Source: Alphaproteobacteria bacterium
Lineage (GTDB): Bacteria > Pseudomonadota > Alphaproteobacteria > Rs-D84
NCBI GenBank assembly: GCA_017443235.1
Contig: JAFSOV010000016.1
Coordinates: forward strand, 9,525-73,524
Direction: 5' to 3'
DNA length: 64,000 bases
Positions 1-24,369 of this stretch are shown in pieces (the stretch's first letter is position 1; each line of letters begins with the position of its first letter). The notes beneath the pieces are model-generated. The model had not been told where the DNA came from and did no database searches. It was given only the letters and a program-made list of their open reading frames with translations. The position numbers and the translations under genes are program-made.

Positions 1-1
1 T

Positions 2-481: not shown

Positions 482-603
482 TGAACACCGCGGTTTTCTG
501 GTGTTTTTTATAAAATGCTTGACTTTTGATGCAATTTGTGATACCATGCTGGACGTCAAAAGAGAGATTTGTGTTCACACGTTGGTGTGAATTTTTTTTA
601 TGC

Positions 604-630
604 CGCACGTCTGTGCGGTTTTTTTCTTGG
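604..630 (+). terminator. hairpin gccgcacgtctgtgcggt followed by a T-run, downstream of birA
   Basis: A GC-stem inverted repeat followed by TTTTTTT. Confidence 0.4.
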
Positions 631-646
631 CACAAAAGGAAGGAAT

Positions 647-1057
647 ATGAATTTTAGCGTGAAAGAATCGCCCAGCAAAACTATGGCGTTGGCGTATCGC
701 ATTGCACGTGTTGTTTATGCGGAAACATATGCGCGTTCTTTGATTGTTGTCGAGGCATTGACATCTATGATTGCAAATTGTGCACGGAAAAATAATCGTG
801 ATATTTGTGATGTAATAACTGATGCGAATATATTCGAATCGCTGAATCCCGATTCGATGCGTCATATGGAGATGAATATCGATTCGAATCGACGCGAATT
901 TCAAATGTGTGTGCGAATCGCGGTGCGTATGTTGCACGGGCATTTGCCGGATATGTGCCGTGGCGCGACAATGTTTCATCGCGCAGAATTATTACCCGGT
1001 TGGGCAATCGCACGCGGATATATCGCAGACATAGATGGAATTTTATTTTACGCATAA
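647..1057 (+). CDS. cell wall hydrolase (SleB/CwlJ-like Hydrolase_2 family); probable phage endolysin
   Basis: The AGGAAGGAA RBS precedes the ATG at 647. The motifs ARVVYAE...ALTSMIANCARKN...DICDVI resemble SleB-type hydrolases. It is followed by a small membrane protein, which suggests a lysis cassette. Confidence 0.55.
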   Translation: MNFSVKESPSKTMALAYRIARVVYAETYARSLIVVEALTSMIANCARKNNRDICDVITDANIFESLNPDSMRHMEMNIDSNRREFQMCVRIAVRMLHGHLPDMCRGATMFHRAELLPGWAIARGYIADIDGILFYA

Positions 1058-1069
1058 TCTTTTTAAGGT

Positions 1070-1264
1070 TTGAATATGAGCAAATTCATTAGTGGTGGTT
1101 TTTTTGCGAATCGCAAAACACAAATTATGACGGTTGTTGGTTTTATATCTGCATTGGCCGCGTATTTGGTTGGCGATTCCGATTTATTCGCGCTGATTCA
1201 GGCATTGATTGCGGTTGGCGGAGTATATATGTTGCATAAATCAAAACAAAACAAAGGAAAATAA
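1070..1264 (+). CDS. holin-like small membrane protein (two predicted TM segments)
   Basis: A 64-aa hydrophobic protein lies immediately downstream of the hydrolase, in the position of T7 gp17.5. Confidence 0.35.
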   Translation: MNMSKFISGGFFANRKTQIMTVVGFISALAAYLVGDSDLFALIQALIAVGGVYMLHKSKQNKGK

Positions 1265-1265
1265 T

Positions 1266-1922
1266 ATGGAAAATATACCAGAAAAATTTCGTAAAGACGA
1301 TGGAACATTAAATACAGATGCACTTATAAAATCTTATACGGAATTGGAAAAGAAAATTGGAACGATGATTTCTGTGCCCGATGAAAATGCAGACGAATCG
1401 GCGGTATGCCGCTTTCGCCGTGCGATTGGCGTGCCGGACAGTCCCGATGAATATCCGCAAAATGAAATGTTTGATGATGAAAATGTGCGACAAGAATTTC
1501 ATAAAATTGGTTTAACAAAAAACCAAGTTGAAAAAATTTATGACATCGCACAAAAATTTTTATCGCCTGTGGTTAATGAAATTTTATCTGTGAAACAAGA
1601 ATCAAATGCGATGTCTGAATTAAAAAAATTCTTTGGTGATGATGAAAAAATGTATGATGCGTTTGTTGCAATAAAATCGTTCGGTGAAAGATTTTTACCC
1701 GCCGATGCGTTTAATGAATTGTGCTCTACACCCCAGGGAATTCAAGGTGTGTACAAGATGATGCAATCAATGGAACCATCGGTGCAAACGGATTCGTCCG
1801 ATACGAAAATTTTATCTGATGAAGAATTGCGTCGTATGATGCGTGATCCAAAATATTGGCGTGATCATGATGCGGAATATGTTCGTAAAATTGAAAACGG
1901 TTTCAAAAAATTATATTCGTGA
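1266..1922 (+). CDS. podovirus scaffolding-like protein (gp9 position)
   Basis: AAAGGAAAA RBS. The protein is acidic and helical and begins MENIPEKFRKDDGTLNTDALIKSYTELEKK. It lies upstream of the capsid gene as in T7-like synteny. Confidence 0.4.
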   Translation: MENIPEKFRKDDGTLNTDALIKSYTELEKKIGTMISVPDENADESAVCRFRRAIGVPDSPDEYPQNEMFDDENVRQEFHKIGLTKNQVEKIYDIAQKFLSPVVNEILSVKQESNAMSELKKFFGDDEKMYDAFVAIKSFGERFLPADAFNELCSTPQGIQGVYKMMQSMEPSVQTDSSDTKILSDEELRRMMRDPKYWRDHDAEYVRKIENGFKKLYS

Positions 1923-2041
1923 TGCAATTTTTTTAATAAAAAATAACTTTTCTTCTTTACTAATTTTTTTCTTTAATATAAAATATAAAACAAGAACAAA
2001 AAGAATTTGTTCTATCCAAAAAAAATAAAAAGGAGAGAAGA

Positions 2042-2347
2042 ATGGCATTCACATTCTTGAAGACTGCGGCAAAGAAACCTGCTGCGAAAAAGCCTGCTGC
2101 CAAGAAACCGGCGGCAAAGAAACCAGCCGCGAAAAAACCGGCTGCGAAAAAACCTGCGGTTAAGAAAGTTGCTGCGAAAAAACCGGCTGCGAAAAAAGTA
2201 GCGGTTAAAAAAGTTGCTGCGAAAAAGCCGGCTGCGAAAAAAGTAGCGGTTAAAAAAGTCGCCGCAAAAAAACCGGTTGCAAAGAAAGTCGTTGCGAAAA
2301 AACCGGCTGCAAAAAAAACATGTGCAAAATGTGCCAAAAGAAAATAA
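2042..2347 (+). CDS. histone H1-like lysine/alanine-rich DNA-binding protein (tandem AAKKP repeats)
   Basis: AAAAGGAGAGAAG RBS. A 101-aa protein made of about 18 [10 protein letters not shown] pentapeptide repeats, reflected in a 15-nt DNA periodicity. Confidence 0.7.
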
Positions 2348-2369
2348 TGGTATTGCACTGAGTATATAA

Positions 2370-2397
2370 ATGCCCGCATGTCGGGCATTTTTGTTTT
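2370..2397 (+). terminator. rho-independent terminator after the H1-like gene
   Basis: atgcccgcatgtcgggcat followed by tttttgtttt. A second hairpin, tcagtcagattttttgtctgactga, follows at 2410-2440. Confidence 0.6.
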
Positions 2398-2573
2398 GTG
2401 AAAAATTTCAGTCAGATTTTTTGTCTGACTGAATTTTTTCCTTGGACAATCCACATTGTGGACCCGTTTGAATTTATTTTCGGCGCCGTACGCGGCATAA
2501 CCACAAATAAATTTTTGGTTGGGCGATAATGATTCGCCTGGATTTCAATTTTGATTAAACAAAAGGAATAATA

Positions 2574-3392
2574 ATGTCTGTTTCCATAGATCAAGTATTT
2601 GTGAAACAATTTGAAGCGGATGTTCACCTTGCGTACCAACAGATGGGGACAAAACTGCGTTCAACGATTCGCAGCAAATCGGGCGTTGTCGGTGCATCCA
2701 CAACTTTTCAAAAAATTGGTAAAGGCACGGCCAGTACCAAATCACGTCACGGCATCGTTCCGGTAATGAACCTTAATCACACTCCGGTGGAATGCACATT
2801 GCAAGATTACTATGCCGGCGATTGGGTTGATGCATTGGATGAATTGAAAATCAATATCGATGAACGTCGTGTGGTTGCATCGGCCGGTGCATATGCGTTG
2901 GGTCGCAAAACCGATGAATTGATTGTGAATGCAATGAACAGTGCAACCGGATATGTTGGTGATTATTCAACCGGTCTTACCAAAACATTGATTTTAACCG
3001 CATTGGAAAAACTGAATGAAAATGATGTCCCAGATGATGGCCGCAGATTCGCAGTCGTTGGTGTAAAACAATGGAATGAATTGTTGGGTATCACAGAATT
3101 TTCTTCGGCGGATTATGTCGGTGAAAATATGCCGTTTATCAATGGATGTGAAACAAGAAAGTGGCTTGGTATCACATGGGTTATGTACAACGATTTGCCG
3201 GTTCCGGCCGCTACACATCGTGATTGCTTTATCTATCATGCGTCCAGTGTTGGTCATGCGTGCGGTCAAGAAGTCAAAACGGATATTACATGGCACGGTG
3301 AACGTGCCGCACATTTCATCAGCAACAGTATGTCCCAAGGGGCGGTGCTGATTGATAATGACGGTATTGTTCGTGTCAAGTGCGGTGAATAA
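2574..3392 (+). CDS. T7 gp10-like major capsid protein (short form, 272 aa)
   Basis: The FVKQFEADVHLAYQQ...RSKSG...TFQKIGKGTAS pattern parallels T7 gp10 LKVFGGEVLTAF...RSISSGKSAQFPVLGRTQAA. Its position between the scaffold and tubular protein A matches T7 synteny. Confidence 0.6.
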   Translation: MSVSIDQVFVKQFEADVHLAYQQMGTKLRSTIRSKSGVVGASTTFQKIGKGTASTKSRHGIVPVMNLNHTPVECTLQDYYAGDWVDALDELKINIDERRVVASAGAYALGRKTDELIVNAMNSATGYVGDYSTGLTKTLILTALEKLNENDVPDDGRRFAVVGVKQWNELLGITEFSSADYVGENMPFINGCETRKWLGITWVMYNDLPVPAATHRDCFIYHASSVGHACGQEVKTDITWHGERAAHFISNSMSQGAVLIDNDGIVRVKCGE

Positions 3393-3416
3393 AACAAATA
3401 ATCCAAGGGGTAAAAA

Positions 3417-3647
3417 ATGGCTTTTCAAAATAAAAATTTATCTGTGATTGCGTATGCCAATGGGTTCACACTGTGGCATTATGCCGCCAATGAAACATTG
3501 GCAACGATTACGGCAAGTGGCTACTTTAACGCGGTTAAAACGTTGATGAACACCGGCGATATGGTTTTAATCAATGCATCCGATAAAACGTCAATCAAAA
3601 AAATTGCGGTTGGCGACAGCGCGGTGACCACTGCGGCATTGGATTAA
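3417..3647 (+). CDS. small phage protein between capsid and tail tubular A
   Basis: GGGGTAAAAAATGG RBS. A 76-aa ORF in the operon context. Confidence 0.3.
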   Translation: MAFQNKNLSVIAYANGFTLWHYAANETLATITASGYFNAVKTLMNTGDMVLINASDKTSIKKIAVGDSAVTTAALD

Positions 3648-3713
3648 TACCTTGTTTGTTTGTATGTTGATAAAGGGGTCGATTTCGGCCCCTTGTATTT
3701 TTCTTGGGGGGAA

Positions 3714-4235
3714 ATGATGCTAACAAAAATAGATTTATGTTCAATGGCGTTGTTAAAATTGGGTGAAAACCCGATTCAATCTTTGTCGGACGATACAACG
3801 GCCGCAAAATTGGGACGTACATTGATTGATTTTGTAATAGATACTTTATTGGCGATGCACCCGTGGCGTTTCGCGTGTCATACATACACGGTTGTCAAAG
3901 ACGAAAATGGTGATTTGAATATACCGGCGGATGTTTTGCGTATTCTTAAAACAAATGCGCGTGTTGTTGATAATAAGATTATATCGGATTCGTCTGCGGT
4001 GGATGTTACGGCAATTCGGCGTGTTTCGCCCGATAGTTTTCCAAGTTATTTTTCATCGTTGGTGGCAACAAAACTGGCCGTGGAATTTTGTATTCCGTTG
4101 ACATCAGATCAAACCGTATTTCGGACATTGGTTGCATTATATGAAACAGAATTACAAACGGCGAAATTCATAGACAGTACAACTTCGATAAATCCTGCGA
4201 TAGAAAACTTTTCGTTGTTGGACAGTCGCTTTTAA
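3714..4235 (+). CDS. tail tubular protein A (T7 gp11-like)
   Basis: The N-terminus LCSMALLKLGENPIQSLSDD..AAKLGRTLIDFVIDTLLAMHPWRF parallels T7 gp11 [55 protein letters not shown] RBS. Confidence 0.6.
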   Translation: MMLTKIDLCSMALLKLGENPIQSLSDDTTAAKLGRTLIDFVIDTLLAMHPWRFACHTYTVVKDENGDLNIPADVLRILKTNARVVDNKIISDSSAVDVTAIRRVSPDSFPSYFSSLVATKLAVEFCIPLTSDQTVFRTLVALYETELQTAKFIDSTTSINPAIENFSLLDSRF

Positions 4236-4252
4236 TACCAAGGGGTGTAAAT

Positions 4253-5959
4253 ATGGGAAACTTTATCAAAACGCAAACGTCGTTTGCCAACGGCGAAGTA
4301 TCACCAAATTTTTTTGCGAATTCCAATATCAACGGACTTTCGCGATTGGAAAATATGGACGTGATACCCGGGGGCGGCCTGCGTCGTCGGCCCGGATTAA
4401 AAAAGATTGCCAAATTGTCGGCAAATGCGCGATTGGTTCCGTTTTCAATTTCTGAAACGGAACATTATGTGTTGGCGATAATGAATGGCCTGGTTCGCAT
4501 TTTTTCGGGTGATTCGTTTGTCCAAGATGTATTTGCGCCGTGGTCGGGTGCGGATGTGGGACTGGTCCAATACGCACAACGTTTTGGAACGATGATTTTC
4601 GTTCATCCAGATTACAGTCCCAGAATTTTGTACCGTGATAACGGTATTTTTAAGTTTATGAATTTTTCGTTCTCGTCATCCGATGGTGGCGAAAATGTCG
4701 ATATGCCTTTTATGCGTTTTGAAGATTCGAATAACATAAGTATCACAATCACTATGGTGGGCAGTACGGCGCACCTGAATACGAATCAAGATTTTTGGAC
4801 GGCACAAAATGTTGACGGCCATTTATCCCTTTTGGGAAAAACTTGGTTGATAACATCATATATTGGACCGCGCGAGGTCACCGCGGCGTGTAATGGTATT
4901 TTTACAATACCAAATTCACCAATCATCGATTGGCAAGAAGCCGTATTCAGCCCACGTCGTGGATGGCCAACCAGTATAACTTTTCACCAGAATCGGTTAG
5001 TGTTTGGTGGTTCAAAATCTTGGCCGGGTGGTGTGTGGATGTCGCATGTTGGCGAACATAAAAATTTTAATACCGGCACAGGTTTGGATGACGAAGCGAT
5101 ATGTTTCACACTGTTGTCATCACGACGTCAACATATTTGCACATTGGTCAGCAGTGACAATTTGCAAATCCTTACATCCGAAGGTGAATGGGCGGTTTCA
5201 AATAAACCATTGACCCCGGAATCAGTGAACATAAAAATGCATACCACAATCGGGTGCATCGCGGACAGATATTTGCCGCCCCAAGAAATTGACGGTTCAA
5301 CAATATTTGTGTCGAACAATAAACACGATATACGACAAATGGTTTTGGACGATTTGGGTCAAAATTACCGGGCCGATAATTTGTGTGCATTGGCGGAACA
5401 TATAATGAACAATCCAATTGATATTGCATACAATAAAACAGATAAAAAACTGTTTGTTGTTATGTCAAATGGCGAAATGGCCGTGTTAAATCGAAATACT
5501 GAATTGGGAATTTCCGGATGGGGACACTATATAACCGCGGGTGAATTCAAATCTGTTGCGGTGTCCAATGGCAATACATACGTCGTGACGGAACGCGATT
5601 CGGAATTTATGTTTGAAAGATTCGATGATTCAAAAATGATTGATGCAGACGAATATCCATACACTTCACGTGCCTGTGGATTGCCGATAATGACGTCTGG
5701 ACATAACGCGAAATATACAAGGATTAAAAAGATTGTCGCACGTGTACACAATTCGAAAACTTTATTTATAAACAATTTTCGAACCGCATTTCCAAATGAA
5801 GTTTATGTTGATGGCGCATCCGGATTTTCGGGCGATATGTCAGTAAATGTTTTGGGAACACTGCGTGATATGGTGGACAGTCCATGGGAAATATCAACCA
5901 GTGATGAATTACCATTGACCGTATTATCGATAACAATATATGGCCGATATCAAATATAA
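4253..5959 (+). CDS. tail tubular protein B (T7 gp12-like)
   Basis: The N-terminal FANGEVSPNFF..GLSRLENMDVIPGGGLRRRPGL resembles gp12 GGISQQPDILRYPDQGSRQVNGWSSETEGLQKRPPL. It follows gp11 as in T7. Confidence 0.6.
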   Translation: MGNFIKTQTSFANGEVSPNFFANSNINGLSRLENMDVIPGGGLRRRPGLKKIAKLSANARLVPFSISETEHYVLAIMNGLVRIFSGDSFVQDVFAPWSGADVGLVQYAQRFGTMIFVHPDYSPRILYRDNGIFKFMNFSFSSSDGGENVDMPFMRFEDSNNISITITMVGSTAHLNTNQDFWTAQNVDGHLSLLGKTWLITSYIGPREVTAACNGIFTIPNSPIIDWQEAVFSPRRGWPTSITFHQNRLVFGGSKSWPGGVWMSHVGEHKNFNTGTGLDDEAICFTLLSSRRQHICTLVSSDNLQILTSEGEWAVSNKPLTPESVNIKMHTTIGCIADRYLPPQEIDGSTIFVSNNKHDIRQMVLDDLGQNYRADNLCALAEHIMNNPIDIAYNKTDKKLFVVMSNGEMAVLNRNTELGISGWGHYITAGEFKSVAVSNGNTYVVTERDSEFMFERFDDSKMIDADEYPYTSRACGLPIMTSGHNAKYTRIKKIVARVHNSKTLFINNFRTAFPNEVYVDGASGFSGDMSVNVLGTLRDMVDSPWEISTSDELPLTVLSITIYGRYQI

Positions 5960-5978
5960 AAAAACAAAAGGATAAAAA

Positions 5979-6326
5979 ATGGGACAAGTTATTTCAGATG
6001 TGAAAGATATTTTGAATTACCAAGAGGGCAAGAAAAAAACTGCATCGACCCGCAAAAAAATTTTAAGACAAATGGCCACGGACGAAAATACCAAACAAAA
6101 CCTTGTAAAAAAAGTCTTGGCAACCCAACGCGCAAAATATGGGGCGTCGGGGATGAAAACCCGTGGCCAAACCGAAGATGCGGTTTTGACACGGTTAAAA
6201 CAAGAAACAGAACAACCATATAATGAAAAAAAGCAATCCAATTTGAACAAATTAAAAAATACGCGTGCCAAGAAAAAGAATCTGTTATTGTCGGCATTGG
6301 AACATATGGAAAAATTGGTCGGGTAA
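5979..6326 (+). CDS. small basic protein (possible internal virion protein, gp13 position)
   Basis: A 115-aa lysine-rich protein following tubular B. Confidence 0.3.
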   Translation: MGQVISDVKDILNYQEGKKKTASTRKKILRQMATDENTKQNLVKKVLATQRAKYGASGMKTRGQTEDAVLTRLKQETEQPYNEKKQSNLNKLKNTRAKKKNLLLSALEHMEKLVG

Positions 6327-6327
6327 G

Positions 6328-6921
6328 ATGACGGAATATAACCAATTTTTGGATTCTTGGAATTCAGTATTGGGATTGGTCACGCCCGCGCATCACCATC
6401 GTATGACAAATTTTTTGACCGATGTGTTAGAAGGTGAAAATCATCGTGGTTTGTTGATGGCATTCCGGCATTCGGGAAAATCCACGATAGTCGGGATTTT
6501 TGCAACGTGCGTCCTGTTTCTGCGCCCCCAAACGCGTATTCTTATTTTGTCGGCCCAGACACACCAGGCCGCCCGAATGGTTATGCATATAAGAAACATT
6601 TTGGAAAATCATCCATGGTGCCAAGATATGATTCCAAAAAATCGTCGTGAATGGGCAGAAAATAAAATAACCATAAATCGCCCAATTGGCATTCGCGAAC
6701 CATCGGTACTGTGCCAAGGAATATACGGAAATATAACCGGTATGCGTGCAGATTTGATAATTTGTGATGATGTCGAGGTTCCAAATACATGCAACACCGC
6801 ACGAAAACGTGCGGCGTTGCGTGAAAGATTGCGTGAATTGGATTTCGTGCTGTCCCCAAATGGTACAATGATTTATATCGGGACACCGCACACATTGGAT
6901 ACCATATATCGTACGGTTTAG
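6328..6921 (+). CDS. terminase large subunit, N-terminal ATPase fragment (split gene)
   Basis: Walker A FRHSGKST and Walker B ADLIICDDVE. The fragment ends LDTIYRTV* after motif III, and no nuclease domain follows in this ORF. Confidence 0.7.
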   Translation: MTEYNQFLDSWNSVLGLVTPAHHHRMTNFLTDVLEGENHRGLLMAFRHSGKSTIVGIFATCVLFLRPQTRILILSAQTHQAARMVMHIRNILENHPWCQDMIPKNRREWAENKITINRPIGIREPSVLCQGIYGNITGMRADLIICDDVEVPNTCNTARKRAALRERLRELDFVLSPNGTMIYIGTPHTLDTIYRTV

Positions 6922-7583
6922 TCCGCAGAATCGGTATGTGGTAAAGAACTGGTAATCTTGTGCAATCGGCGCAGTAATTTTTGTCCTTCGTCACCGAACA
7001 TCGGCAGGTATGTTTCATAATCCAACATATCAACCTGAAGCTGTGCACGTGCGCGTTCGTTTATCGGTTTTGCCAAGATTTCGTTTGCATTGTCCCAAAG
7101 TTTATATGCCCTCTGGGTGCGGATAATCATATCAAATTTCTTCAATGCTTCGGGATTGTTATTCAATATGTTCTTGATGGAATTTGCCCAATCAGGACCA
7201 AATTTTTTAACAACCGGGTTTTGCATAAATTCATTCAATTTATCTTGGTCCGGTTCAAAATCATCAATTGCATTTATAAGTTCTGCCATATCCGCAAACG
7301 GCACATCGGTCGCATTTGCGCCTTCGTTCATCATACCACCATAGGGCAATAATTCGCGTGCAATTGAATTCATGGGCGTTTTGCCATCACGCAAATTTTT
7401 TATGTGTTGCGCCAACATTTTGCCGGTGGGTAAATCGGCCATTTCATTCAATACTTCATCGGTGGCCTCGTCAACAAAGACACGATTCACCGCGCCCCAC
7501 CCGCCGACAATAACGTGCGCCTGGCGATACAGATTCAGTAATTTTTGTGCGATTACGCTTGCTTTGGCTTTCATCTCGTTCAA
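6918..7583 (-). CDS. hypothetical protein (221 aa) inside the terminase-interrupting insert
   Basis: A clean ORF ending 4 bp inside the terminase-N stop. I recognise no family for it. Confidence 0.45.
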   Translation of the reverse strand: MNEMKAKASVIAQKLLNLYRQAHVIVGGWGAVNRVFVDEATDEVLNEMADLPTGKMLAQHIKNLRDGKTPMNSIARELLPYGGMMNEGANATDVPFADMAELINAIDDFEPDQDKLNEFMQNPVVKKFGPDWANSIKNILNNNPEALKKFDMIIRTQRAYKLWDNANEILAKPINERARAQLQVDMLDYETYLPMFGDEGQKLLRRLHKITSSLPHTDSAD

Positions 7584-7601
7584 TCCCTCCGTTGGATGGT
7601 G

Positions 7602-8612
7602 TTATTCTGTGGTGACCATAATAACCTTGTGCATAGTTTGCGCAGAAATTTTTTCTTCGGGCGACACTATTTGGCCATAAATTTTGCCTTTGGAATCTTG
7701 ACGTACTATGGCGATTTGTGCGACCAACGTTTTATCATCACTCAGCGTTTTGAAATCGGTATCAACAAACACCGCCAAATCACCAACCGCGGGCACCGAT
7801 TTAACATCTGCAAAAACATAGGAACGTGCCGGAATAAACCCGCCCAGACGTTTAGAATTTGGAATAAGGGCATATACGCCGCGGCGGCCTTCAAGATTTG
7901 CCGGCGCCGCAATCATTGTTGAATCAGATTTTTTGAATGCAATTCCTTTGCCTTCGGGTTTGCCGAAGACCGGAACCAATTTTTTGCGCGCATTATCATA
8001 CAATTTGGCACCATACAAATGTCCCTGCATATCGCCCAAATCGGCAGCGGAATCCCCAGGAACCAGAACGGCCCGTACGCGTTCTTTGACCTTGTTCATT
8101 TGTTTGGTCAGTTCGCCAGATTTATATAAATCTGCGATTTTATCGAACATACTGTCCACAGAATGCGCAAATGAGCGCGCCAATGGTTCAATTTCATTTT
8201 TATATACTTCGCGTTGGCCGACCTCTATCTTGTGATACACAGACAGTGTCATTCCCGCATCTTTGGCGGCCTGGGCAATGGTTTTGCCGGCCTGTTGACG
8301 TATTTTGCGCAGACCACTGCCGAATACTTTCAATCCGCTGTCTTCATTATCGTTCATACGGCGTTTGATTTCATTTTGCCATTTTGCGGCGACTTCGTCT
8401 GTGTCCTTGATGAATATATCGGACAATTTGCACCCCAATATATTGCATATATTTAACAATTGTTTTTGGTTCAGGCGGCGCACACCTTTTTCAATCTTGG
8501 AAACCGCCGACAACGACAATCCCGACCGGCGTGCCAGTTCTGTCATCTTCATACCCGCGGCCAGACGAATGTTGCGAATGTTATTTGGAAAAATGATTTC
8601 TTCTTGGGCCAT
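7602..8612 (-). CDS. XRE-family repressor with two N-terminal HTH domains and a C-terminal LexA/CI (S24)-like beta domain
   Basis: Two HTH_XRE-like segments: IRNIRLAAGMKMTELARRSGLSLSAVSKIEKG and LRKIRQQAGKTIAQAAKDAGMTLSVYHKIEVG. The C-terminal VGDLAVFV...KTLVAQIAIV resembles the LexA C-domain, but I do not see a GDSM catalytic Ser motif. Confidence 0.6.
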   Translation of the reverse strand: MAQEEIIFPNNIRNIRLAAGMKMTELARRSGLSLSAVSKIEKGVRRLNQKQLLNICNILGCKLSDIFIKDTDEVAAKWQNEIKRRMNDNEDSGLKVFGSGLRKIRQQAGKTIAQAAKDAGMTLSVYHKIEVGQREVYKNEIEPLARSFAHSVDSMFDKIADLYKSGELTKQMNKVKERVRAVLVPGDSAADLGDMQGHLYGAKLYDNARKKLVPVFGKPEGKGIAFKKSDSTMIAAPANLEGRRGVYALIPNSKRLGGFIPARSYVFADVKSVPAVGDLAVFVDTDFKTLSDDKTLVAQIAIVRQDSKGKIYGQIVSPEEKISAQTMHKVIMVTTE

Positions 8613-8683
8613 ATAAAACTCCTTGGGATAAATCTTGACAAAATCATAGTCAATTTTAGAAAACTTGGCAAGGAAAAAGTTTA

Positions 8684-8725
8684 ATGGTGGTTAGTGTTAG
8701 TGATTAGTGTAAGTGGTTAGTAACA
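8684..8725. repeat. TTAGTGG heptad repeat block (inverted partial copy of the 62521-62625 element)
   Basis: ggtggttagtgttagtgattagtgtaagtggttagtaacactaa. Its reverse complement contains actaaccacttacactaa, which is identical to 62608-62625. Confidence 0.6.
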
Positions 8726-10267
8726 CTAATTCATATCGTCGGGTATTTCGTTCAGGTCGATAGGCATTGCATCATTGGTTTGCGGTACGGGTGCGCCTTC
8801 TTCGGCAAATTGGATGCCACCACGGTTCGCCATATCGTTCAGGTTATCAAACAAACTGAATTCCGGCAAGAACGCCAATTTAATGGTATCTGTTTTTCCG
8901 TGGCGGTTTTTGCCGATAATGACATCGGCTTTGCCTTTGGATTTTTCCATACGATTTTGCCACGAATCAACAGACCTTTCATTCGGGGCACCCGAAAGAC
9001 GGTGCGACGGGTCGCGATTCGCCAAATAATATTCTTCACGATACGTGAACATAACAATGTCCGCGTCTTGTTCAATAGAACCGGATTCACGCAAATCCGA
9101 CAATTGCGGGCGTTTATCATCACGCATTTCAACACTGCGCGATAACTGCGACAGGGCGATAACCGGAACCTCAAATTCCTTGGCCAACATTTTAAGGGCG
9201 CGCGTTATTTCGGACAGTTCTTGGACACGATTATCTTTGTTTTTCCCGCCCGGCGAAGTCAATAATTGCAGGTAATCAATCACAATCAGCGCAATTCCGT
9301 TATATTTGCGCGCCAATCTCCGCACGCGCGTGCGAATCATTGGCACCGACATCCCCGGTGTATCGTCAATGAACAATGGAATACGACTTATCGCATCGGA
9401 AAATTGCGTCATTTTAAGAAAGTCTTCATCGGTCAATGAACCTTCGCGCATCGCACTGGACGGGATGCGTGATTGCGAAGACAAAACACGTGCCGCCAAT
9501 TCGGATGCACCCATTTCCAGGCTGAAAAACGCGACCGCGCCGGTATACTGCGGGTTGGCGCGGCCCGAAAATATCGCGTTTGCCGCATTGAATGCAATAT
9601 TCATGGCCAATGTCGTTTTACCCATACCCGGACGCCCCGCGATAATCAACAGGTTTGATTTGTGCATACCACTTATTGCGGAATCTAAATCGGTCAATCC
9701 CGTTGTCAATCCGGACAATTTGCCGTCCGCCTTGTATGCGATTTCGGCCTCAACCAGTGCGCTTTTTAACGCGTTGGCAATCGGTGTGACATCACGCCCG
9801 GAATCACCACTTGTCGCCATATTGAACAGCATTTGTTCCGCATTTTCGATTTGGGTCGTCACCGGTTTGTCCAAATCTTCGACAAATGCGTCATCGGTTA
9901 TATTTTGTCCAATTTGAATCAGTTCGCGGCGCATCGCATTTTCATGCACGATTCGTCCATATTGTTCAACGTTCACAACCGTTGCGCCCGCGCCCGCCAA
10001 TTGTGTCAAATAATCGATTCCGCCCACAGATTCCAATGTTCCCTGTTGGTCCAGATAGTTTTTAACGGTAATTATGTCGAACGGTATTCCGGCCGCAAAT
10101 TGGCGCATCGCCAAACGATATATTTCTTGGTGGGCGGGATGGGAAAAATCTTCGGCTTTCAAAAATTCGGAAATTTTTTCCAGTGCGCGGTTGTTGATAA
10201 GCACCGCCGCCAAGACGGCCTGTTCGGCCTCCATATTCGTTGGTAAAGTTTTGGGAGTAAAGTCCAT
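8726..10267 (-). CDS. dnaB: DnaB-family replicative DNA helicase
   Basis: A full DnaB N-domain plus the RecA-like domain with Walker A GRPGMGKTT and the SLEMGASELAARVL and IDYLQLL motifs. At 513-515 aa there is no room for an intein. Confidence 0.85.
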   Translation of the reverse strand: MDFTPKTLPTNMEAEQAVLAAVLINNRALEKISEFLKAEDFSHPAHQEIYRLAMRQFAAGIPFDIITVKNYLDQQGTLESVGGIDYLTQLAGAGATVVNVEQYGRIVHENAMRRELIQIGQNITDDAFVEDLDKPVTTQIENAEQMLFNMATSGDSGRDVTPIANALKSALVEAEIAYKADGKLSGLTTGLTDLDSAISGMHKSNLLIIAGRPGMGKTTLAMNIAFNAANAIFSGRANPQYTGAVAFFSLEMGASELAARVLSSQSRIPSSAMREGSLTDEDFLKMTQFSDAISRIPLFIDDTPGMSVPMIRTRVRRLARKYNGIALIVIDYLQLLTSPGGKNKDNRVQELSEITRALKMLAKEFEVPVIALSQLSRSVEMRDDKRPQLSDLRESGSIEQDADIVMFTYREEYYLANRDPSHRLSGAPNERSVDSWQNRMEKSKGKADVIIGKNRHGKTDTIKLAFLPEFSLFDNLNDMANRGGIQFAEEGAPVPQTNDAMPIDLNEIPDDMN

Positions 10268-11111
10268 GTCCAATATACTATATGAAAAAAATGTTTTTTC
10301 AACGCCTTTTTTATGCGGGTATGCCGAATTAAAAATTCCAATACTGGATTCAAGCGGAAATTCGGCATGGCCGGCGGTTTTTCCGCCTGAAAAAATTGCC
10401 CAAATCAGGGATACGGTCGGTGAAAGGCATTTTTCGGCGCAAATGATGCTGGATTATGTGTCGCCTGAAAAAATCCGCCTGGATCCCGGGACAATACATT
10501 TTTATGAAGACGAATTTGACCCACACACCGCCCGCATCGGGGACGATTTAATGTCGGGTGCGGCAATTTATTGGGACCCATCGGGTGGCCGCCGCGGCGC
10601 CGATAACAGTGTTTGTGCATTGATTTATCGTGACGATAAAAATCGCCGCGTCTTTATACACGATATTATCTATGTTGTTGTGCCAGATGAAATAGATTAT
10701 CCATTGGCATATCAATGTGACCGGATTATCGAATTTGTGCGTCACAGCAATATGCACCAAATTGCATTGGAAACAAATGGTCTTGGGGCGGCATTACCCG
10801 AAATTATGCGTGACATCATAAAGCGTAATGGTGGCGGAATAAATCTGCGCCCAATAACAAATTCGCGGCGCAAAGAAGACCGTATATTGGACGCATTGGA
10901 ACCATTAATGTCAACGGGTCGATTGTTCGCCCATCGGCGAATCACCCAAACCCCATTTATTACAGAAATGTTGGCATGGTCGCCATTAGGCGGATGCGAA
11001 CACGATGACGGTTTGGATGCGGTTGCCGGTGCAATTACGTGTCCGCCGGTACCTGTGCGCCCAACCTTTGGTGGTGCGCGGTATATGGCAAACACAGATT
11101 TCAAAATTTAA
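10266..11111 (+). CDS. terminase large subunit, C-terminal nuclease fragment (split gene)
   Basis: It starts exactly at the dnaB start on the other strand. The AIYWDPSGGRRGADNSVCAL...HDIIYVV...ETNGLG...DDGLDA pattern is the RNaseH-like nuclease domain of large terminases. Confidence 0.65.
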   Translation: MSNILYEKNVFSTPFLCGYAELKIPILDSSGNSAWPAVFPPEKIAQIRDTVGERHFSAQMMLDYVSPEKIRLDPGTIHFYEDEFDPHTARIGDDLMSGAAIYWDPSGGRRGADNSVCALIYRDDKNRRVFIHDIIYVVVPDEIDYPLAYQCDRIIEFVRHSNMHQIALETNGLGAALPEIMRDIIKRNGGGINLRPITNSRRKEDRILDALEPLMSTGRLFAHRRITQTPFITEMLAWSPLGGCEHDDGLDAVAGAITCPPVPVRPTFGGARYMANTDFKI

Positions 11112-11132
11112 TACATAACAAAAGGAAAAAAT

Positions 11133-12359
11133 ATGAAATATGATTTACAACAAATGTACAATCGCGCGATAAATATGCGTGAACCTTGGTTGCGTCGTTG
11201 GGCGGATGCGCGCCGTTATACCATGCCATCAACCGATGAAGATTTGGCGACACTGTTTGATGCGACCGCATCGGACGCGGCCGACAATTTGGCGGCGTGT
11301 ATGTATTCGCTGTTGACGCCCCCAGAATCTTTGTGGTTAAACCTTGTTCGTGAAAGCGATGATTCGCCCGACCCAGAAATCGCAACCGCGGCATTGCGTG
11401 CGAATTTGAATGATTCGAATTTTTACACAACGATTCATCAATGCTATATGGATTTAGTGACATTGGGGACGGCGTGCCTGTTTATGGCGGAATCGCCCAT
11501 TGGCACGGCCAGTGCGTTTTCATTTACGGCAATTCCAATTTCTGATATTGCAATTTTACCGGATGCGATATTTCATACAACAACGCTTTCGGCGGCGGAA
11601 ATTTCGCGCCGTTATCCTGAATGGACACCGCCACGCGATATAATGAAAAAAATGCAGCAAGATGCGGAATACAGACTTCGCCTGGTCCAATCTTTGGTGG
11701 GTACTGAATTTACCGCGTGGATTGACGTTGGCGGCGACTTTGAAAACAACATAGTGTCGCGTGGGACATTCGAAACGAATCCTTATTTGATTTTCCGTTG
11801 GTCGGTGGCCAGTGGTGAATTATACGGTCGTGGCCCGATTTTGCGCGCTTTGCCGGACATCAAAACCGCAAACAAAGTTGTCGAATTGGTTTTGAAAAAT
11901 GCAACAATCGCGGTCAGTGGCATATGGCAGGCCGATGATGACGGCGTCATAAACCTTGGCAATATCAATTTAACACCGGGTGCGATAATACCAAAAGCCG
12001 TGGGCAGTTCGGGCCTGACGCCACTTGCGTCGGGTGCAAATTTTGATGTGTCGCAAATTATTTTGAAAGATTTGCGCGAACGTATCCGGCACACTTTATT
12101 GGCGGACAGAATCGGTTTGTTATCTGAAAAAGAAATGACCGCAACAGAAATCTTGGCGCGCAATGCGGATATGCTGCGCATTTTGGGTGCGACATATGGG
12201 CGTCTGTTGCATGAATTTATACGGCCACTGTGCGACCGCGGATTGCAAATATTGGCACGGCGGGGCGTGATTGACAAGATATCATTGCACGGTGATGCAG
12301 AATTGAAATACATCGCGCCCATCGCGCAAATGGTTGCAGAAAATAATACAATAATTTAG
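11133..12359 (+). CDS. head-tail connector (portal) protein, T7 gp8-like
   Basis: ELYGRGPILRALPDIK and TATEILARNADMLRILGATYGRLLHEFIRPLCDRGLQILARRG parallel the T7 gp8 central and C-terminal regions. Confidence 0.6.
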   Translation: MKYDLQQMYNRAINMREPWLRRWADARRYTMPSTDEDLATLFDATASDAADNLAACMYSLLTPPESLWLNLVRESDDSPDPEIATAALRANLNDSNFYTTIHQCYMDLVTLGTACLFMAESPIGTASAFSFTAIPISDIAILPDAIFHTTTLSAAEISRRYPEWTPPRDIMKKMQQDAEYRLRLVQSLVGTEFTAWIDVGGDFENNIVSRGTFETNPYLIFRWSVASGELYGRGPILRALPDIKTANKVVELVLKNATIAVSGIWQADDDGVINLGNINLTPGAIIPKAVGSSGLTPLASGANFDVSQIILKDLRERIRHTLLADRIGLLSEKEMTATEILARNADMLRILGATYGRLLHEFIRPLCDRGLQILARRGVIDKISLHGDAELKYIAPIAQMVAENNTII

Positions 12360-12370
12360 TGGTGATAAAT

Positions 12371-12577
12371 ATGGAACGTATAGAAATCGCATATGCGCGC
12401 ACGTTCGGCGGCGCATCGGGTGCGGTCGTTTTGGAACATCTGCGCAAGATTACGATTGAACGGTCGTTGGGACCAAATGCGTCTGAATCAGAACTGCGCA
12501 GTATCGAAGCCCAACGTGCATTGGTTCATAAAATAGAACAATTGGTATTACGGGGGCGTGAAAATGCAAAAACATAA
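12371..12577 (+). CDS. small phage-associated protein
   Basis: A 68-aa ORF overlapping the next ORF. It belongs to the module by context. Confidence 0.3.
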   Translation: MERIEIAYARTFGGASGAVVLEHLRKITIERSLGPNASESELRSIEAQRALVHKIEQLVLRGRENAKT

Positions 12578-12821
12578 TGGACTGGCAAATATAATTGATA
12601 CACTGCGCAGTGGATGGTTTTTAATTGCGTTTATTGGTGGTATGATTTATTGGGTCGCGCGCCAAGATAATGCATTGGTGGAACTGGACCGATTGACGGT
12701 TCGTATGACAACACTGGAAAATCGCACAACGGTGTTGGAAACCGGAATAGGCCAATTACAATTAAAAATAGACGGCATCAAAGAAGACGTCACTTTGATA
12801 AAAACTGCGGTTATAAAGTAA
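12558..12821 (+). CDS. small membrane/coiled-coil protein (phage module end)
   Basis: An 87-aa protein with an N-terminal TM helix and a coiled coil. It is followed by a strong terminator. Confidence 0.3.
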   Translation: MKMQKHNGLANIIDTLRSGWFLIAFIGGMIYWVARQDNALVELDRLTVRMTTLENRTTVLETGIGQLQLKIDGIKEDVTLIKTAVIK

Positions 12822-12827
12822 AAGAAA

Positions 12828-12866
12828 ATCCCGCGCATTTATGTGTGCGGGATAATTTTTGTTTTT
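12828..12866. terminator. bidirectional rho-independent terminator
   Basis: atcccgcgcatttatgtgtgcgggat followed by aatttttgttttt. Confidence 0.65.
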
Positions 12867-13014
12867 AGCAACCACCGGTCGCGGCGCCAATCCATTTAGA
12901 AACAGAAATATCTTTGTGTAACAAGAAATGATATTCGCAATTTCCAGATTTATATGCACCTGTGCAGGCGGCCAAAGTCAAAACAGCAAACAATGCCAAG
13001 ATAACTTTTTTCAT
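12865..13014 (-). CDS. small cysteine-containing lipoprotein (49 aa; entericidin-like architecture)
   Basis: Not in the ORF track because it is under 60 aa. It translates as MKKVILALFAVLTLAACTGAYKSGNCEYHFLLHKDISVSKWIGAATGGC, with a lipobox LAAC and an AAAGGAGAA RBS. Confidence 0.4.
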   Translation of the reverse strand: MKKVILALFAVLTLAACTGAYKSGNCEYHFLLHKDISVSKWIGAATGGC

Positions 13015-14262: not shown

Positions 14263-14267
14263 ATCAT

Positions 14268-14921: not shown

Positions 14922-14922
14922 A

Positions 14923-24276: not shown

Positions 24277-24369
24277 ACCAAATAATGTATCATAAATTCA
24301 CTTTGTTTGAAAGACTTTTTGTGATAGAATATATGTCGATAAATTAAAACTTTGGGGGAGATAAAAATT

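What the first reader, a model, noticed from the sequence alone, without database searches (positions are those of the whole stretch)
500..12870. Miniaturised T7-like structural and lysis module without replication, RNA polymerase, core or fibre genes
Sequence-visible homologs of T7 gp9, gp10, gp11, gp12 and gp8 are present, together with a split gp19 and an endolysin-holin pair. They lie in the order lysis-9-10-11-12-13-19-8, which equals the T7 order opened between portal and scaffold with everything else deleted. Each protein is shorter than its T7 counterpart (capsid 272 aa, tubular B 568 aa, portal 408 aa). No integrase, RNA polymerase or gp14-17 genes are present. This looks either like a decaying Autographiviridae-type prophage or like a domesticated particle of the gene-transfer-agent or tailocin kind, kept by a likely host-associated bacterium. 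The module sits between birA and host envelope genes.
Basis: partly seen in the sequence, partly recalled or inferred. Interest (0 to 1): 0.75.

Follow-up and report, generated by a model that had tools for sequence, protein, structure and literature searches.

The report
Domesticated podovirus module with split terminase
A compact set of phage head, stubby-tail, DNA-packaging and lysis genes has been kept intact, in the same chromosomal place, by hundreds of species of tiny-genome gut alphaproteobacteria (Candidatus Enterousia and relatives). Its packaging enzyme is permanently split in two around the host's essential DnaB helicase gene, which makes it a strong candidate for a new, undescribed gene-transfer-agent-like particle.

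Summary
Window 647-12821 encodes an endolysin, a holin-like protein, a T7 gp9-like scaffold, capsid, tail adaptor, nozzle, a two-piece T7 gp19-like large terminase, portal and small conserved ORFs.

This is not a decaying prophage. The same gene order, including the split and the nested dnaB, is found in all 80 species-level genomes fetched, out of 481 with a capsid relative. These are Candidatus Enterousia, order Rs-D84, with genomes below 1 Mb. The ORFs are intact, dN/dS is 0.05-0.19, and the terminase catalytic motifs are invariant.

Three deeper alphaproteobacterial lineages carry the same module, with TerL ending at the same site. Their gap holds nothing, ftsZ plus the portal gene, or several genes followed by ftsZ. 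Free phage relatives have canonical gene order and, in the two whose terminase gene was examined, an intact TerL.

The best reading is an anciently domesticated podovirus that makes DNA-packaging particles released by lysis, in the manner of a gene transfer agent. Particle formation and DNA transfer are untested. Ejection proteins are absent, and the fibre is minimal or lost. I found no description in the searched literature.

The parts
1..481 (+). 3' part of host birA (biotin protein ligase). Conserved upstream neighbour of the module.
   Evidence: PF03099 9e-8. A birA match lies upstream of the lysis genes in 62 of the 80 GTDB species loci, in most of them directly upstream; the rest are mostly cut at the contig end.
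647..1057 (+). Probable endolysin (SleB-like cell-wall hydrolase), 136 aa.
   Evidence: PF07486 2.2e-5 (25.5 bits, cutoff 27); phrog_938 endolysin 2.5e-8. dN/dS 0.19.
1076..1264 (+). Holin-like small membrane protein, 62 aa.
   Evidence: Two hydrophobic TM-like segments and a basic C-terminus. Conserved position. dN/dS 0.11.
1266..1922 (+). Scaffolding protein (T7 gp9-type).
   Evidence: PF05396 2.9e-13, phrog_3742 1.2e-16. dN/dS 0.16.
2042..2347 (+). Lys/Ala-rich (AKKPA)n histone-H1-like protein, 101 aa, built from 15-nt tandem repeats.
   Evidence: PF07382 HC2 6.6e-16; NF038053 4.8e-13, below cutoff. An ORF of this kind lies between scaffold and capsid in about 38 of 40 species loci inspected. 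Repeats.
2368..2433 (+). Two terminator-like hairpins in a highly structured intergenic region upstream of the capsid gene.
   Evidence: Fold of 2340-2580 gives z = -5.15.
2574..3392 (+). Major capsid protein, 272 aa (HK97-fold family PF19821).
   Evidence: PF19821 5.2e-73, phrog_3437 7e-74. 82-99% identical in 80 species. dN/dS 0.047.
3417..3647 (+). Small conserved virion-module protein (o76). It follows the capsid gene in free phage relatives too.
   Evidence: phrog_18004 3.5e-13. Present after the capsid gene in L134-L161 phage contigs. dN/dS 0.07.
3673..3694 (+). Terminator-like hairpin between o76 and the tail genes.
3714..4235 (+). Tail tubular protein A / adaptor (T7 gp11-like).
   Evidence: PF17212 6.7e-5, phrog_394 5.2e-28. 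dN/dS 0.135.
4253..5959 (+). Tail tubular protein B / nozzle (T7 gp12-like), 568 aa.
   Evidence: phrog_376 4.5e-81. PDB 8ck1 'Tail Nozzle' 9.4e-30. Intact in 79 of 79 loci.
5979..6326 (+). Basic 115-aa protein of unknown role, in the position of T7 gp13, just upstream of terL. In 21 of 80 sister species a 182-aa gp17-N-terminal-like fibre gene follows it; it is absent here.
   Evidence: No family hit. dN/dS 0.155. Fibre-like gene.
6328..6921 (+). Large terminase, N-terminal piece (ATPase core: Walker A FRHSGKST, Walker B DLIICDDVE, C-motif GTPHT), 197 aa, ending in its own stop codon.
   Evidence: PDB 8dgc/4bij T7-type gp19 residues 46-211, E 8.5e-23. Motifs essentially invariant in 77 species. 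dN/dS 0.06. All 120 closest homologues are 177-217 aa.
6918..7574 (-). o221, an acidic protein of unknown function. Last gene of the nested host cassette.
   Evidence: No family hit. Conserved in 75 of 75 loci. dN/dS 0.14. Its stop overlaps the terN stop by 4 nt in 42 of 73 species.
7602..8612 (-). Regulator with two XRE-type HTH domains, 336 aa, in the nested cassette.
   Evidence: PF01381 1.6e-20, two stretches. dN/dS 0.077.
8726..10267 (-). Host replicative DNA helicase DnaB, nested between the terminase halves.
   Evidence: NF006606 replicative DNA helicase equivalog 600.7 bits (cutoff 540). Phage_DnaB TIGR03600 is below its cutoff. The ATG overlaps the terC ATG in CATG in 67 of 68 species.
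10266..11111 (+). Large terminase, C-terminal piece (rest of the ATPase domain plus the RNaseH-like nuclease, with motifs WDPS, ETNG, HDDGLDA), 281 aa, with its own ATG.
   Evidence: PF22530 1.9e-8, phrog_38 8e-37. The catalytic D, E and D are invariant in 74 species. dN/dS 0.148. Aligned to intact phage TerL in A1.
11133..12359 (+). Portal protein (T7 gp8-type), 408 aa.
   Evidence: PF12236 2.9e-78. Full-length weak matches to the T7 portal 6r21/3j4a. dN/dS 0.057.
12371..12577 (+). Bbp19-like small protein. In free phage relatives it lies between portal and scaffold.
   Evidence: PF25181 1.6e-9.
12564..12821 (+). o87, a protein with an N-terminal TM segment and a coiled coil (spanin-like by composition only).
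   Evidence: Sequence inspection. dN/dS 0.084.
12828..12853 (+). Terminator-like hairpin closing the module.

Best explanation
The region is an anciently domesticated podovirus morphogenesis, packaging and lysis module, fixed in the chromosome of the Rs-D84/Enterousia lineage and of related reduced-genome alphaproteobacteria.

**Shown**
- The genes are phage-derived.
- They are chromosomal and flanked by housekeeping genes.
- They have an identical order in every genome examined.
- They are intact and under strong purifying selection.
- They co-diverge with host genes.
- The large terminase exists as two separately translated polypeptides that between them keep every catalytic motif.

**Inferred**
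- Under some signal, perhaps through the nested double-HTH regulator, a subpopulation expresses the module.
- Scaffold, capsid and portal form procapsids.
- TerN and TerC associate non-covalently into a working motor-nuclease that packages host DNA by the headful, since no phage genome is left to recognise.
- The adaptor and nozzle close the portal.
- The holin-like protein and endolysin release the particles, which carry host DNA to sister cells, as a gene transfer agent does.
- Because gp14-16-type ejection proteins are absent and the fibre is minimal or lost, delivery probably stops at the envelope and relies on recipient uptake functions, as described for RcGTA (my own knowledge). A comM/yifB gene is present in the window.
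- The gap created by the terminase split has repeatedly received essential host genes (dnaB here, ftsZ in a sister lineage). This makes the module undeletable and may couple its expression to replication or division.
For: - **Phage identity.** Family assignments for every structural gene.
- **Spread and synteny.** A capsid relative is present in 481 GTDB species genomes. All 80 fetched share the order birA-lys-holin-scaffold-KA-capsid-o76-tubA-tubB-o115-terN-[o221,HTH,dnaB]-terC-portal-bbp19-o87. The same holds for metagenome contigs of GC 35-53%.
- **Intact ORFs.** Capsid 80/80, nozzle 79/79, terN 76/76, terC 73/73, portal 67/68.
- **Selection.** Median dN/dS: capsid 0.047, portal 0.057, terN 0.060, terC 0.148. 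Host genes for comparison: dnaB 0.062, birA 0.127.
- **Slow capsid evolution.** The capsid (median 85% identity) evolves more slowly than DnaB (74%).
- **Co-divergence.** Spearman 0.63-0.83 against dnaB.
- **Catalytic motifs.** The Walker A lysine, Walker B acidic residues, C-motif G-T-P and the nuclease D/E/D are invariant in 74-77 species.
- **Independent translation of terC.** It has its own ATG preceded by GGGAG, at the same position in 67 of 68 species.
- **Free phage relatives.** Canonical order, and an intact TerL of 498-510 aa in the two examined.
- **Deeper lineages.** They share the module and the same split site, with different gap contents.
- **Host setting.** Genomes are below 1 Mb without pseudogene accumulation (PMC12306168), so about 9 kb of useless DNA would not persist.
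- **No mobility or replication functions.** No integrase, RNA polymerase or phage replication genes, and no att-like repeats.
Against: - No particle, packaged DNA or transfer has been observed. All functional steps are inferred.
- There is no recognisable small terminase.
- There are no internal or ejection proteins (gp14-16 equivalents).
- The window's clade has no fibre at all. Sister lineages have only a 182-239-aa gp17-N-terminal-like protein.
- A large terminase split inside its ATPase domain has, to my knowledge, not been shown to work.
- The related phages have genomes of about 34 kb (the cultured pelagiphages). If the capsid still has a full-size geometry it could hold the whole 12-kb locus, unlike classical GTAs.
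- Promoter-like sites are no more frequent than chance, so the operon structure is unproven.
- I could not show that dnaB is single-copy in these genomes.
Confidence: 0.6

Rival explanations
1. Cryptic prophage remnant decaying neutrally. The structural genes are leftovers with no present function.
For: Replication, integration, RNA polymerase, ejection-protein and fibre genes are missing, and the terminase gene is interrupted.
Against: - Identical synteny and intact ORFs in all 80 species fetched, and in deeper lineages.
- dN/dS of 0.05-0.19 with synonymous sites near saturation.
- Invariant catalytic motifs.
- The host genomes are strongly streamlined (PMC12306168).
Confidence: 0.02
2. A domesticated particle whose selected function is not gene transfer. 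Possibilities include altruistic lysis that releases DNA or nutrients, a killing or adhesion particle aimed at partner or competitor cells, or a capsid used as a DNA or cargo container.
For: - No ejection proteins, and a fibre that is minimal or lost.
- Retained lysis genes.
- A polycationic histone-like protein encoded inside the head operon.
- The hosts are thought to be partner-dependent cells (PMC12306168).
Against: - Both terminase activities (ATPase and nuclease motifs), the portal and the nozzle are under strong constraint. This points to DNA packaging and a closed, tail-bearing particle rather than a mere lysis cassette.
- No toxin or effector gene is recognisable in the module.
Confidence: 0.25
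3. A helper-dependent satellite (like a capsid-forming PICI) that still moves horizontally, using fibres and ejection proteins from a co-infecting podovirus.
For: - It encodes its own capsid, portal, terminase and connector but lacks fibre and ejection proteins.
- Related free podophages exist in gut and other samples.
- IMG/VR lists the module as about 50 viral contigs.
Against: - No integrase, replication or excision functions, and no att repeats.
- Always the same chromosomal site.
- Essential dnaB or ftsZ lies nested inside.
- It co-diverges with host genes.
- Unlike cf-PICIs, it has tail adaptor and nozzle genes.
Confidence: 0.04
4. The phage-derived genes have been individually co-opted for unrelated cellular roles and no longer assemble together.
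For: - Host genes are interleaved (dnaB cassette, histone-like gene).
- In the L245 lineage the portal gene sits between ftsZ and terC.
Against: The full interacting set (scaffold, capsid, portal, adaptor, nozzle and both terminase pieces) is co-retained in every lineage examined, largely in order. This is what is expected if the selected unit is the assembled particle.
Confidence: 0.05

Closest known systems
RcGTA-type gene transfer agents of Alphaproteobacteria (Rhodogtaviriformidae), including their retention in reduced endosymbiont genomes (PMC9254644)
   Same: - A phage-derived head, tail and packaging cluster fixed in the chromosome.
- Vertically inherited across a large clade and under purifying selection.
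- No replication or integration genes.
- Retained even in highly reduced genomes.
- Likely dependent on recipient uptake functions.
   Different: - RcGTA derives from an HK97-like siphovirus with a long tail and an intact terminase (my own knowledge).
- Here the ancestor is a podovirus with a T7-type terminase, the tail is only adaptor plus nozzle, TerL is split in two, and lysis genes sit inside the cluster.
- No sequence relationship beyond shared folds was seen in the family searches.
BaGTA of Bartonella (Guy et al. 2013, PMC3610622)
   Same: An independent, lineage-specific domestication in host-associated Alphaproteobacteria. It is highly conserved across the genus.
   Different: The BaGTA genes are different: portal gene 1863 nt (about 620 aa), terminase gene 1344 nt (about 447 aa, intact), and an associated run-off replication origin. 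No such origin or phage helicase module is present here. The helicase in the locus is the host DnaB.
FpGTA of Faecalibacterium prausnitzii (PMC12946183)
   Same: A gut-bacterial GTA-like element proposed to have podovirus-like morphology and to include lysis genes.
   Different: - It is in Firmicutes.
- It has two loci with baseplate, tail fibre and RBP genes.
- It is present in only some strains.
- Packaging has been shown experimentally.
- The present element is alphaproteobacterial, in a single locus, clade-wide, lacks a fibre or RBP, has a split TerL, and is untested.
HTVC010P-type pelagiphages and uncultured podophages (e.g. Pelagibacter phage Hodr OQ414635; IMG/VR contigs L134-L162; MT838907)
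   Same: - Closest sequence relatives: capsid 44-66%, portal 32-42%.
- The same run portal-bbp19-scaffold-capsid-o76-adaptor-nozzle.
   Different: - The complete cultured members are about 34-kb genomes with many further genes, including large ORFs after the nozzle gene.
- Two of the uncultured contigs (L145, L147) carry one intact TerL ORF.
- The Hodr TerL is not similar to this one.
Phage T7 gp19 large terminase (PDB 4BIJ, 8DGC)
   Same: Clear homology of the ATPase core (E 8.5e-23) with Walker A, Walker B and C-motif, plus a T7-type RNaseH-like nuclease domain.
   Different: It is encoded as two ORFs broken after the C-motif, in a linker that varies in sequence and length among intact relatives. 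The pieces are separated by 3.3 kb of host genes on the other strand.

Membership tests
Gene transfer agent / viriform | Phage-derived structural and packaging gene cluster resident in the cellular chromosome and inherited vertically. | tested here: met
   Identical locus and order in 80 of 80 species genomes and in long metagenome contigs, including contigs of 0.35-1.05 Mb. Co-divergence with dnaB, rho 0.63-0.83.
Gene transfer agent / viriform | Genes maintained by purifying selection rather than decaying. | tested here: met
   Median dN/dS of 0.047-0.19 for all module genes. ORFs intact. Catalytic motifs invariant.
Gene transfer agent / viriform | No capacity for autonomous replication, integration or excision. 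| tested here: met
   No integrase, phage polymerase, primase or RNAP in the window ORFs scanned or in the upstream flank of relatives. No att repeats. The only helicase is the host DnaB equivalog.
Gene transfer agent / viriform | Particles package essentially random host DNA, with no preference for their own genes. | not testable with these tools
   Needs sequencing of nuclease-protected DNA from particles.
Gene transfer agent / viriform | Particles deliver DNA to recipient cells. | not testable with these tools
   Needs a transfer assay. The absence of ejection proteins and of a full fibre leaves this open.
Autographiviridae (T7-like) prophage | Phage-encoded single-subunit RNA polymerase, plus a DNA replication module. 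| tested here: not met
   No such gene in the window ORFs scanned or in relatives' flanks.
Autographiviridae (T7-like) prophage | Internal core proteins gp14-16 and a full-length gp17 fibre. | tested here: not met
   Nothing lies between the nozzle gene and terN except a 115-aa ORF. Sister lineages have only a 182-239-aa gp17-N-terminal-domain protein.
T7-type large terminase (gp19) | Walker A, Walker B and C-motif ATPase plus an RNaseH-like nuclease, in one polypeptide. | tested here: not met
   All motifs are present and invariant, but they are distributed over two ORFs, each with its own stop or start codon, in every species examined. This is homology with a changed architecture.
Capsid-forming PICI / phage satellite | Integrase, replication initiator, helper-responsive regulation, and no tail genes. 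| tested here: not met
   No integrase or replication gene. Adaptor and nozzle genes are present. The chromosomal position is fixed.
Tailocin | Tail-only particle without capsid, portal or terminase. | tested here: not met
   Capsid, scaffold, portal and terminase are present and are the most conserved genes.

The most novel reading that the evidence does not exclude
This is a previously unrecognised, independently domesticated family of podovirus-derived gene-transfer particles. It would be shared by a whole radiation of reduced-genome gut alphaproteobacteria. It would work with a naturally two-piece large terminase. The gap between the two terminase genes would act as a harbour for essential genes (dnaB operon, ftsZ), so that the module cannot be lost and its expression is mechanically coupled, through convergent, divergent or antisense transcription, to shutting down replication or division in the producing cell.
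Probability: 0.25. Interest if true: 0.92.

Novelty: new variant of a known kind. Interest (0 to 1): 0.8.

Why it matters
Only a handful of independent phage domestications into gene transfer agents are known. This would add one, with podovirus ancestry, in an abundant but uncultured group of gut and rumen bacteria whose genomes are below 1 Mb.

That such streamlined cells spend about 1% of their genome on a phage particle, and conserve its capsid more tightly than their replicative helicase, implies an important role. DNA exchange and repair in small asexual populations is an obvious candidate.

The permanently split large terminase is a natural experiment on how these packaging motors are built.

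The nesting of dnaB or ftsZ inside the split is an unusual example of host and ex-viral genes becoming physically entangled.

On the practical side, virus databases currently list this chromosomal locus as dozens of separate 'viral genomes' (IMG/VR UViGs). That inflates estimates of rumen viral diversity.

Tried and rejected
- **BaGTA.** This was my first guess from the GC content and 'host-associated'. It is rejected because the BaGTA gene sizes and content differ and the organism is Enterousia.
- **Self-splicing intron joining the terminase halves.** No Rfam match to any intron family in the window's module or in L133, at E up to 1.
- **Excisable cassette restoring terL.** No direct or inverted repeats flank 6921/10266, and the cassette carries no recombinase.
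- **Further phage genes elsewhere in the window.** All ORFs of 31 related phage or phage-like loci were searched against the window by tblastn and gave nothing beyond 12.9 kb. Pfam scans of most larger ORFs up to 54.9 kb found housekeeping genes and some without any match.
- **att sites.** None found.
- **Promoter scan.** Uninformative: 37 sites against 36.4 expected.
- **Hodr TerL as the ancestor of this terminase.** No similarity.
- **Direct T7 gp10 similarity of the capsid.** Not detected.
- **Function of o115, o87, o221, bbp19 and o76.** No informative family hits.
- **Structure prediction.** Not attempted.

Full report
**1. What is in the window**

On the plus strand, downstream of the 3' end of birA, lie:

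- a SleB-like cell-wall hydrolase (647-1057);
- a 62-aa protein with two TM-like segments and a basic tail (1076-1264, holin-like);
- a T7 gp9-type scaffold (1266-1922);
- a Lys/Ala-rich histone-H1-like ORF (2042-2347);
- the capsid (2574-3392);
- a small protein that also follows the capsid gene in phage relatives (3417-3647);
- the tail adaptor (3714-4235);
- the nozzle (4253-5959);
- a basic 115-aa ORF (5979-6326);
- the N-terminal piece of a T7-type large terminase (6328-6921).

Three genes then follow on the minus strand: an unknown 221-aa ORF, a 336-aa protein with two XRE-type HTH domains, and DnaB (6918-10267).

The plus strand resumes with the C-terminal terminase piece (10266-11111), the portal (11133-12359), a Bbp19-like protein and a TM-plus-coiled-coil protein. 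It ends at a terminator-like hairpin at 12828-12853.

DnaB scores 600.7 bits against the replicative-helicase equivalog NF006606 (cutoff 540). It fails the phage_DnaB model. It is therefore the host's replication helicase, not a phage gene.

**2. The terminase split**

TerN aligns to T7-type gp19 residues 46-211 (E 8.5e-23). It carries Walker A, Walker B and the C-motif, and ends '...GTPHTLDTIYRTV*'.

TerC starts at its own ATG, preceded by GGGAG, with 'MSNILYEKNVF...'. It carries the rest of the ATPase domain and the RNaseH-like nuclease, with motifs WDPS, ETNG and HDDGLDA.

I aligned both pieces to the intact 498-510-aa TerL of two related uncultured phages. The break falls in a short linker that varies in sequence and length. 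No conserved segment is missing.

No intron family matches the region. No repeats flank the cassette. The two halves are therefore neither spliced nor rejoined by excision.

**3. Who carries it**

A scan of one genome per GTDB species found capsid relatives in 481 species. The best 80 are all Candidatus Enterousia or unnamed rumen and gut alphaproteobacterial MAGs. This is the order Rs-D84, whose genomes are mostly below 1 Mb, with normal coding density and no sign of pseudogene accumulation (PMC12306168).

In all 80 the gene order is the same as in the window, including the split and the nested o221-HTH-dnaB cassette. Metagenome contigs with GC from 35 to 53%, from rumen, gut and activated sludge, show the same order.

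Upstream of birA the relatives have ordinary host genes: a T2SSE-family ATPase, an outer-membrane beta-barrel protein and a tRNA methyltransferase. Downstream the window has three ORFs without family matches and a weak VirB8-like match, then bamA, rseP, cdsA, uppS, frr and further housekeeping genes. The 'missing' phage genes are therefore not just outside the window.

**4. Selection**

| Gene | Loci with an intact full-length ORF |
|---|---|
| capsid | 80/80 |
| nozzle | 79/79 |
| terN | 76/76 |
| terC | 73/73 |
| portal | 67/68 |

| Gene | Median Nei-Gojobori dN/dS |
|---|---|
| capsid | 0.047 |
| portal | 0.057 |
| terN | 0.060 |
| o76 | 0.070 |
| o87 | 0.084 |
| adaptor | 0.135 |
| terC | 0.148 |
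| scaffold | 0.163 |
| nozzle | 0.167 |
| endolysin | 0.19 |
| dnaB (host) | 0.062 |
| birA (host) | 0.127 |

The dN/dS values were computed over pairs with unsaturated synonymous divergence.

Pairwise identities of the module proteins track those of DnaB (Spearman 0.63-0.83). BirA tracks DnaB no better (0.66).

The capsid is more conserved than DnaB: median identity to the window protein is 85% against 74%.

The Walker A lysine, the Walker B acidic residues, the C-motif G-T-P and the three nuclease acidic residues are invariant in 74-77 species.

The junctions are extraordinarily tight and conserved:
- The dnaB and terC start codons overlap in the palindrome CATG in 67 of 68 species.
- The terN and o221 stop codons overlap by 4 nt in most species.
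- terC is followed by the portal gene after 14-37 nt.

**5. Origin**

The closest cultured phages are HTVC010P-type pelagiphages: Hodr has capsid 44% and portal 32% identity. A 5-kb human-faecal 'Bacteriophage sp.' fragment has capsid 66% identity.

IMG/VR holds two kinds of relative:

- About 50 'viral genomes' of about 4-14 kb, most about 10 kb, that are simply the Enterousia locus cut out of bacterial contigs.
- Genuine phage-like contigs with 59-65% capsid identity. Their order is portal-bbp19-scaffold-capsid-o76-adaptor-nozzle-...-fibre-...-terL. The two in which terL was examined have it as one intact ORF.

Relative to that order, three changes define the bacterial module:
- It is opened between bbp19 and the scaffold gene.
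- Everything between terL and portal has been lost.
- The large genes between nozzle and terL have been lost.

**6. Deeper lineages**

The capsid of IMG/VR contig L133 (65% identical to the window's) is encoded on a 1.05-Mb contig of a 31%-GC alphaproteobacterial MAG. Three deeper lineages were examined.

| Lineage | Gene order around the terminase |
|---|---|
| L243 (31% GC; same module as L133) | lysis-scaffold-capsid-adaptor-nozzle-...-fibre(237 aa)-terN(213 aa)-334 bp-terC(289 aa)-two small ORFs-portal-birA |
| L245 (55% GC; 'Rickettsiales bacterium' MAG) | ...fibre-terN(180 aa)-ftsZ(471 aa)-portal-terC(287 aa) |
| L247 (31% GC; gut lineage) | terN(204 aa) followed by three ORFs and ftsZ; the locus ends before any terC or portal gene |

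In each of them TerN is a separate ORF ending at the same position as in Enterousia.

The split is therefore older than the dnaB insertion and has been kept across a wide radiation. Different essential host genes have settled in or next to the gap in different lineages.

Length data agree that the split is a derived and unusual state:
- All 120 closest TerN homologues in a 5.8-billion-protein collection are 177-217 aa.
- Among 50%-identity cluster representatives, relatives at 40-52% identity are mostly 450-515 aa.

**7. Variable parts**

A 182-aa protein with a weak match to the N-terminal, tail-binding domain of the T7 fibre lies between o115 and terN in 21 of the 80 species, and in many metagenome contigs. 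It is absent from the window's clade. The deeper lineages have a 233-239-aa version that passes the Pfam cutoff.

No lineage examined has gp14-16-like proteins next to the module.

The Lys/Ala-rich ORF between scaffold and capsid is present in about 38 of 40 species inspected. It has conserved termini and a variable repeat number.

**8. Interpretation**

*Shown.* This is a chromosomal, vertically inherited, selectively maintained set of podovirus head, neck, packaging and lysis genes, with a two-piece terminase.

*Inferred.* The genes still build a DNA-filled particle that is released by lysis and serves the host, most plausibly as a gene transfer agent.

Arguments for packaging:
- Both terminase activities and the portal are under strict constraint.

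Arguments for release and a closed particle:
- The holin-like gene, the endolysin, the adaptor and the nozzle are retained.

Arguments against efficient delivery:
- Ejection proteins are missing.
- The fibre is eroding.

A periplasm-stop delivery completed by recipient uptake functions, as reported for RcGTA (my own knowledge), would reconcile these points. A comM/yifB homologue is in the window, but it is a common gene and proves nothing.

A function other than gene transfer cannot be excluded. I give it about one chance in four.

**9. Comparison and novelty**

The element meets the genomic criteria of a GTA or viriform. It is unrelated to RcGTA and, by gene content, to BaGTA. It differs from the recently described podovirus-like FpGTA in host phylum, gene set and distribution.

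It fails the defining features of an Autographiviridae prophage, a capsid-forming PICI and a tailocin.

Searches of the held literature for Enterousia, Rs-D84, podovirus-type GTAs and split terminases found no description of it. The two papers on these bacteria that I could see do not mention phage genes.

I therefore rate it a new variant of a known kind. The split terminase and the nested essential genes are its distinctive, unexplained features.

Noticed in passing
window 29648-31177 (-): A ComM/YifB-type Mg-chelatase-like ATPase (PF01078 1e-92) is retained in this reduced genome. ComM is part of the recipient machinery for GTA and transformation DNA in other alphaproteobacteria (my own knowledge).
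   Followed up: no
window 44948-46597 (+): The queA gene (PF02547 1e-110) carries an inserted DUF559 (Vsr-like endonuclease) domain at residues 298-402, giving a 549-aa fusion. This may be a domesticated or mobile endonuclease insertion.
   Followed up: no
window 24352-28614 (+): A 1420-aa ORF with no Pfam match at E 0.001. The large ORFs at 51904-53502 and 28667-29641 also have no match. They could be surface or partner-interaction proteins of this reduced-genome bacterium.
   Followed up: no
window 2042-2347 (+): A histone-H1-like (AKKPA)n protein is encoded by 15-nt tandem repeats inside the head operon. It has conserved 'MAFTFLK' and 'CAKxCAKKK' ends, and the repeat number varies between species. 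It may be a DNA-condensing cargo or a nucleoid protein that moved in.
   Followed up: partly
window 2340-2580 (+): The intergenic region upstream of the capsid gene is unusually structured (MFE z = -5.15). It has two terminator-like hairpins, and similar strong RBS contexts precede the capsid, o76 and o115 genes. This suggests differential expression of the capsid, as with T7 gene 10.
   Followed up: partly
window 6791-6820: A perfect 13-bp-stem hairpin (9 GC pairs) lies inside the terN coding sequence, about 100 nt downstream of the o221 stop on the minus strand. It was listed by the terminator scan, though its tail is a poor T run. It could end the dnaB operon transcript inside the terminase gene.
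   Followed up: no
window 10264-10268 and 67 of 68 related loci: The divergent start codons of dnaB and terC overlap in the palindrome CATG, leaving no intergenic DNA. Each gene's translation signals, and presumably its promoter, must lie inside the other gene.
   Followed up: partly
window 13441-15657 (-); L003 5-964: Just downstream of the module are two ORFs with no family match and a weak VirB8-like protein (PF04335 6.7e-6). Upstream in relatives is a T2SSE/VirB11-like ATPase. These may be remnants of a secretion or DNA-uptake system.
   Followed up: no
L034 13767-14315 and 20 other GTDB species loci: A 182-aa protein resembling the N-terminal domain of the T7 fibre (PF03906 3.7e-4) lies between o115 and terN in some Enterousia clades. 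It has been lost in the window's clade.
   Followed up: yes
L245 12871-17264: In a 55%-GC 'Rickettsiales bacterium' MAG the same module has ftsZ, followed by the portal gene, between terN and terC. In L247, ftsZ lies a few genes downstream of terN.
   Followed up: partly
L083-L132 (IMG/VR UViGs): About 50 IMG/VR 'viral genomes' of about 4-14 kb (most about 10 kb) are this chromosomal locus, many cut to start exactly at the capsid gene and containing the host dnaB. They are provirus-caller artefacts, not viruses.
   Followed up: yes
L207, L224, L240: In some lineages the portal match lies about 1.7-2.2 kb after the start of terC, against about 0.87 kb elsewhere. This implies roughly 0.9-1.3 kb of extra sequence between terC and portal. 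L243 has two small ORFs there, one with a pilin-like N-methylation motif.
   Followed up: no
L082 (MT838907.1): A 5-kb 'Bacteriophage sp.' fragment from human faeces has the canonical portal-scaffold-capsid-o76-adaptor-nozzle order and a capsid 66% identical to the window's. It may come from a free phage of gut alphaproteobacteria related to the ancestor.
   Followed up: partly
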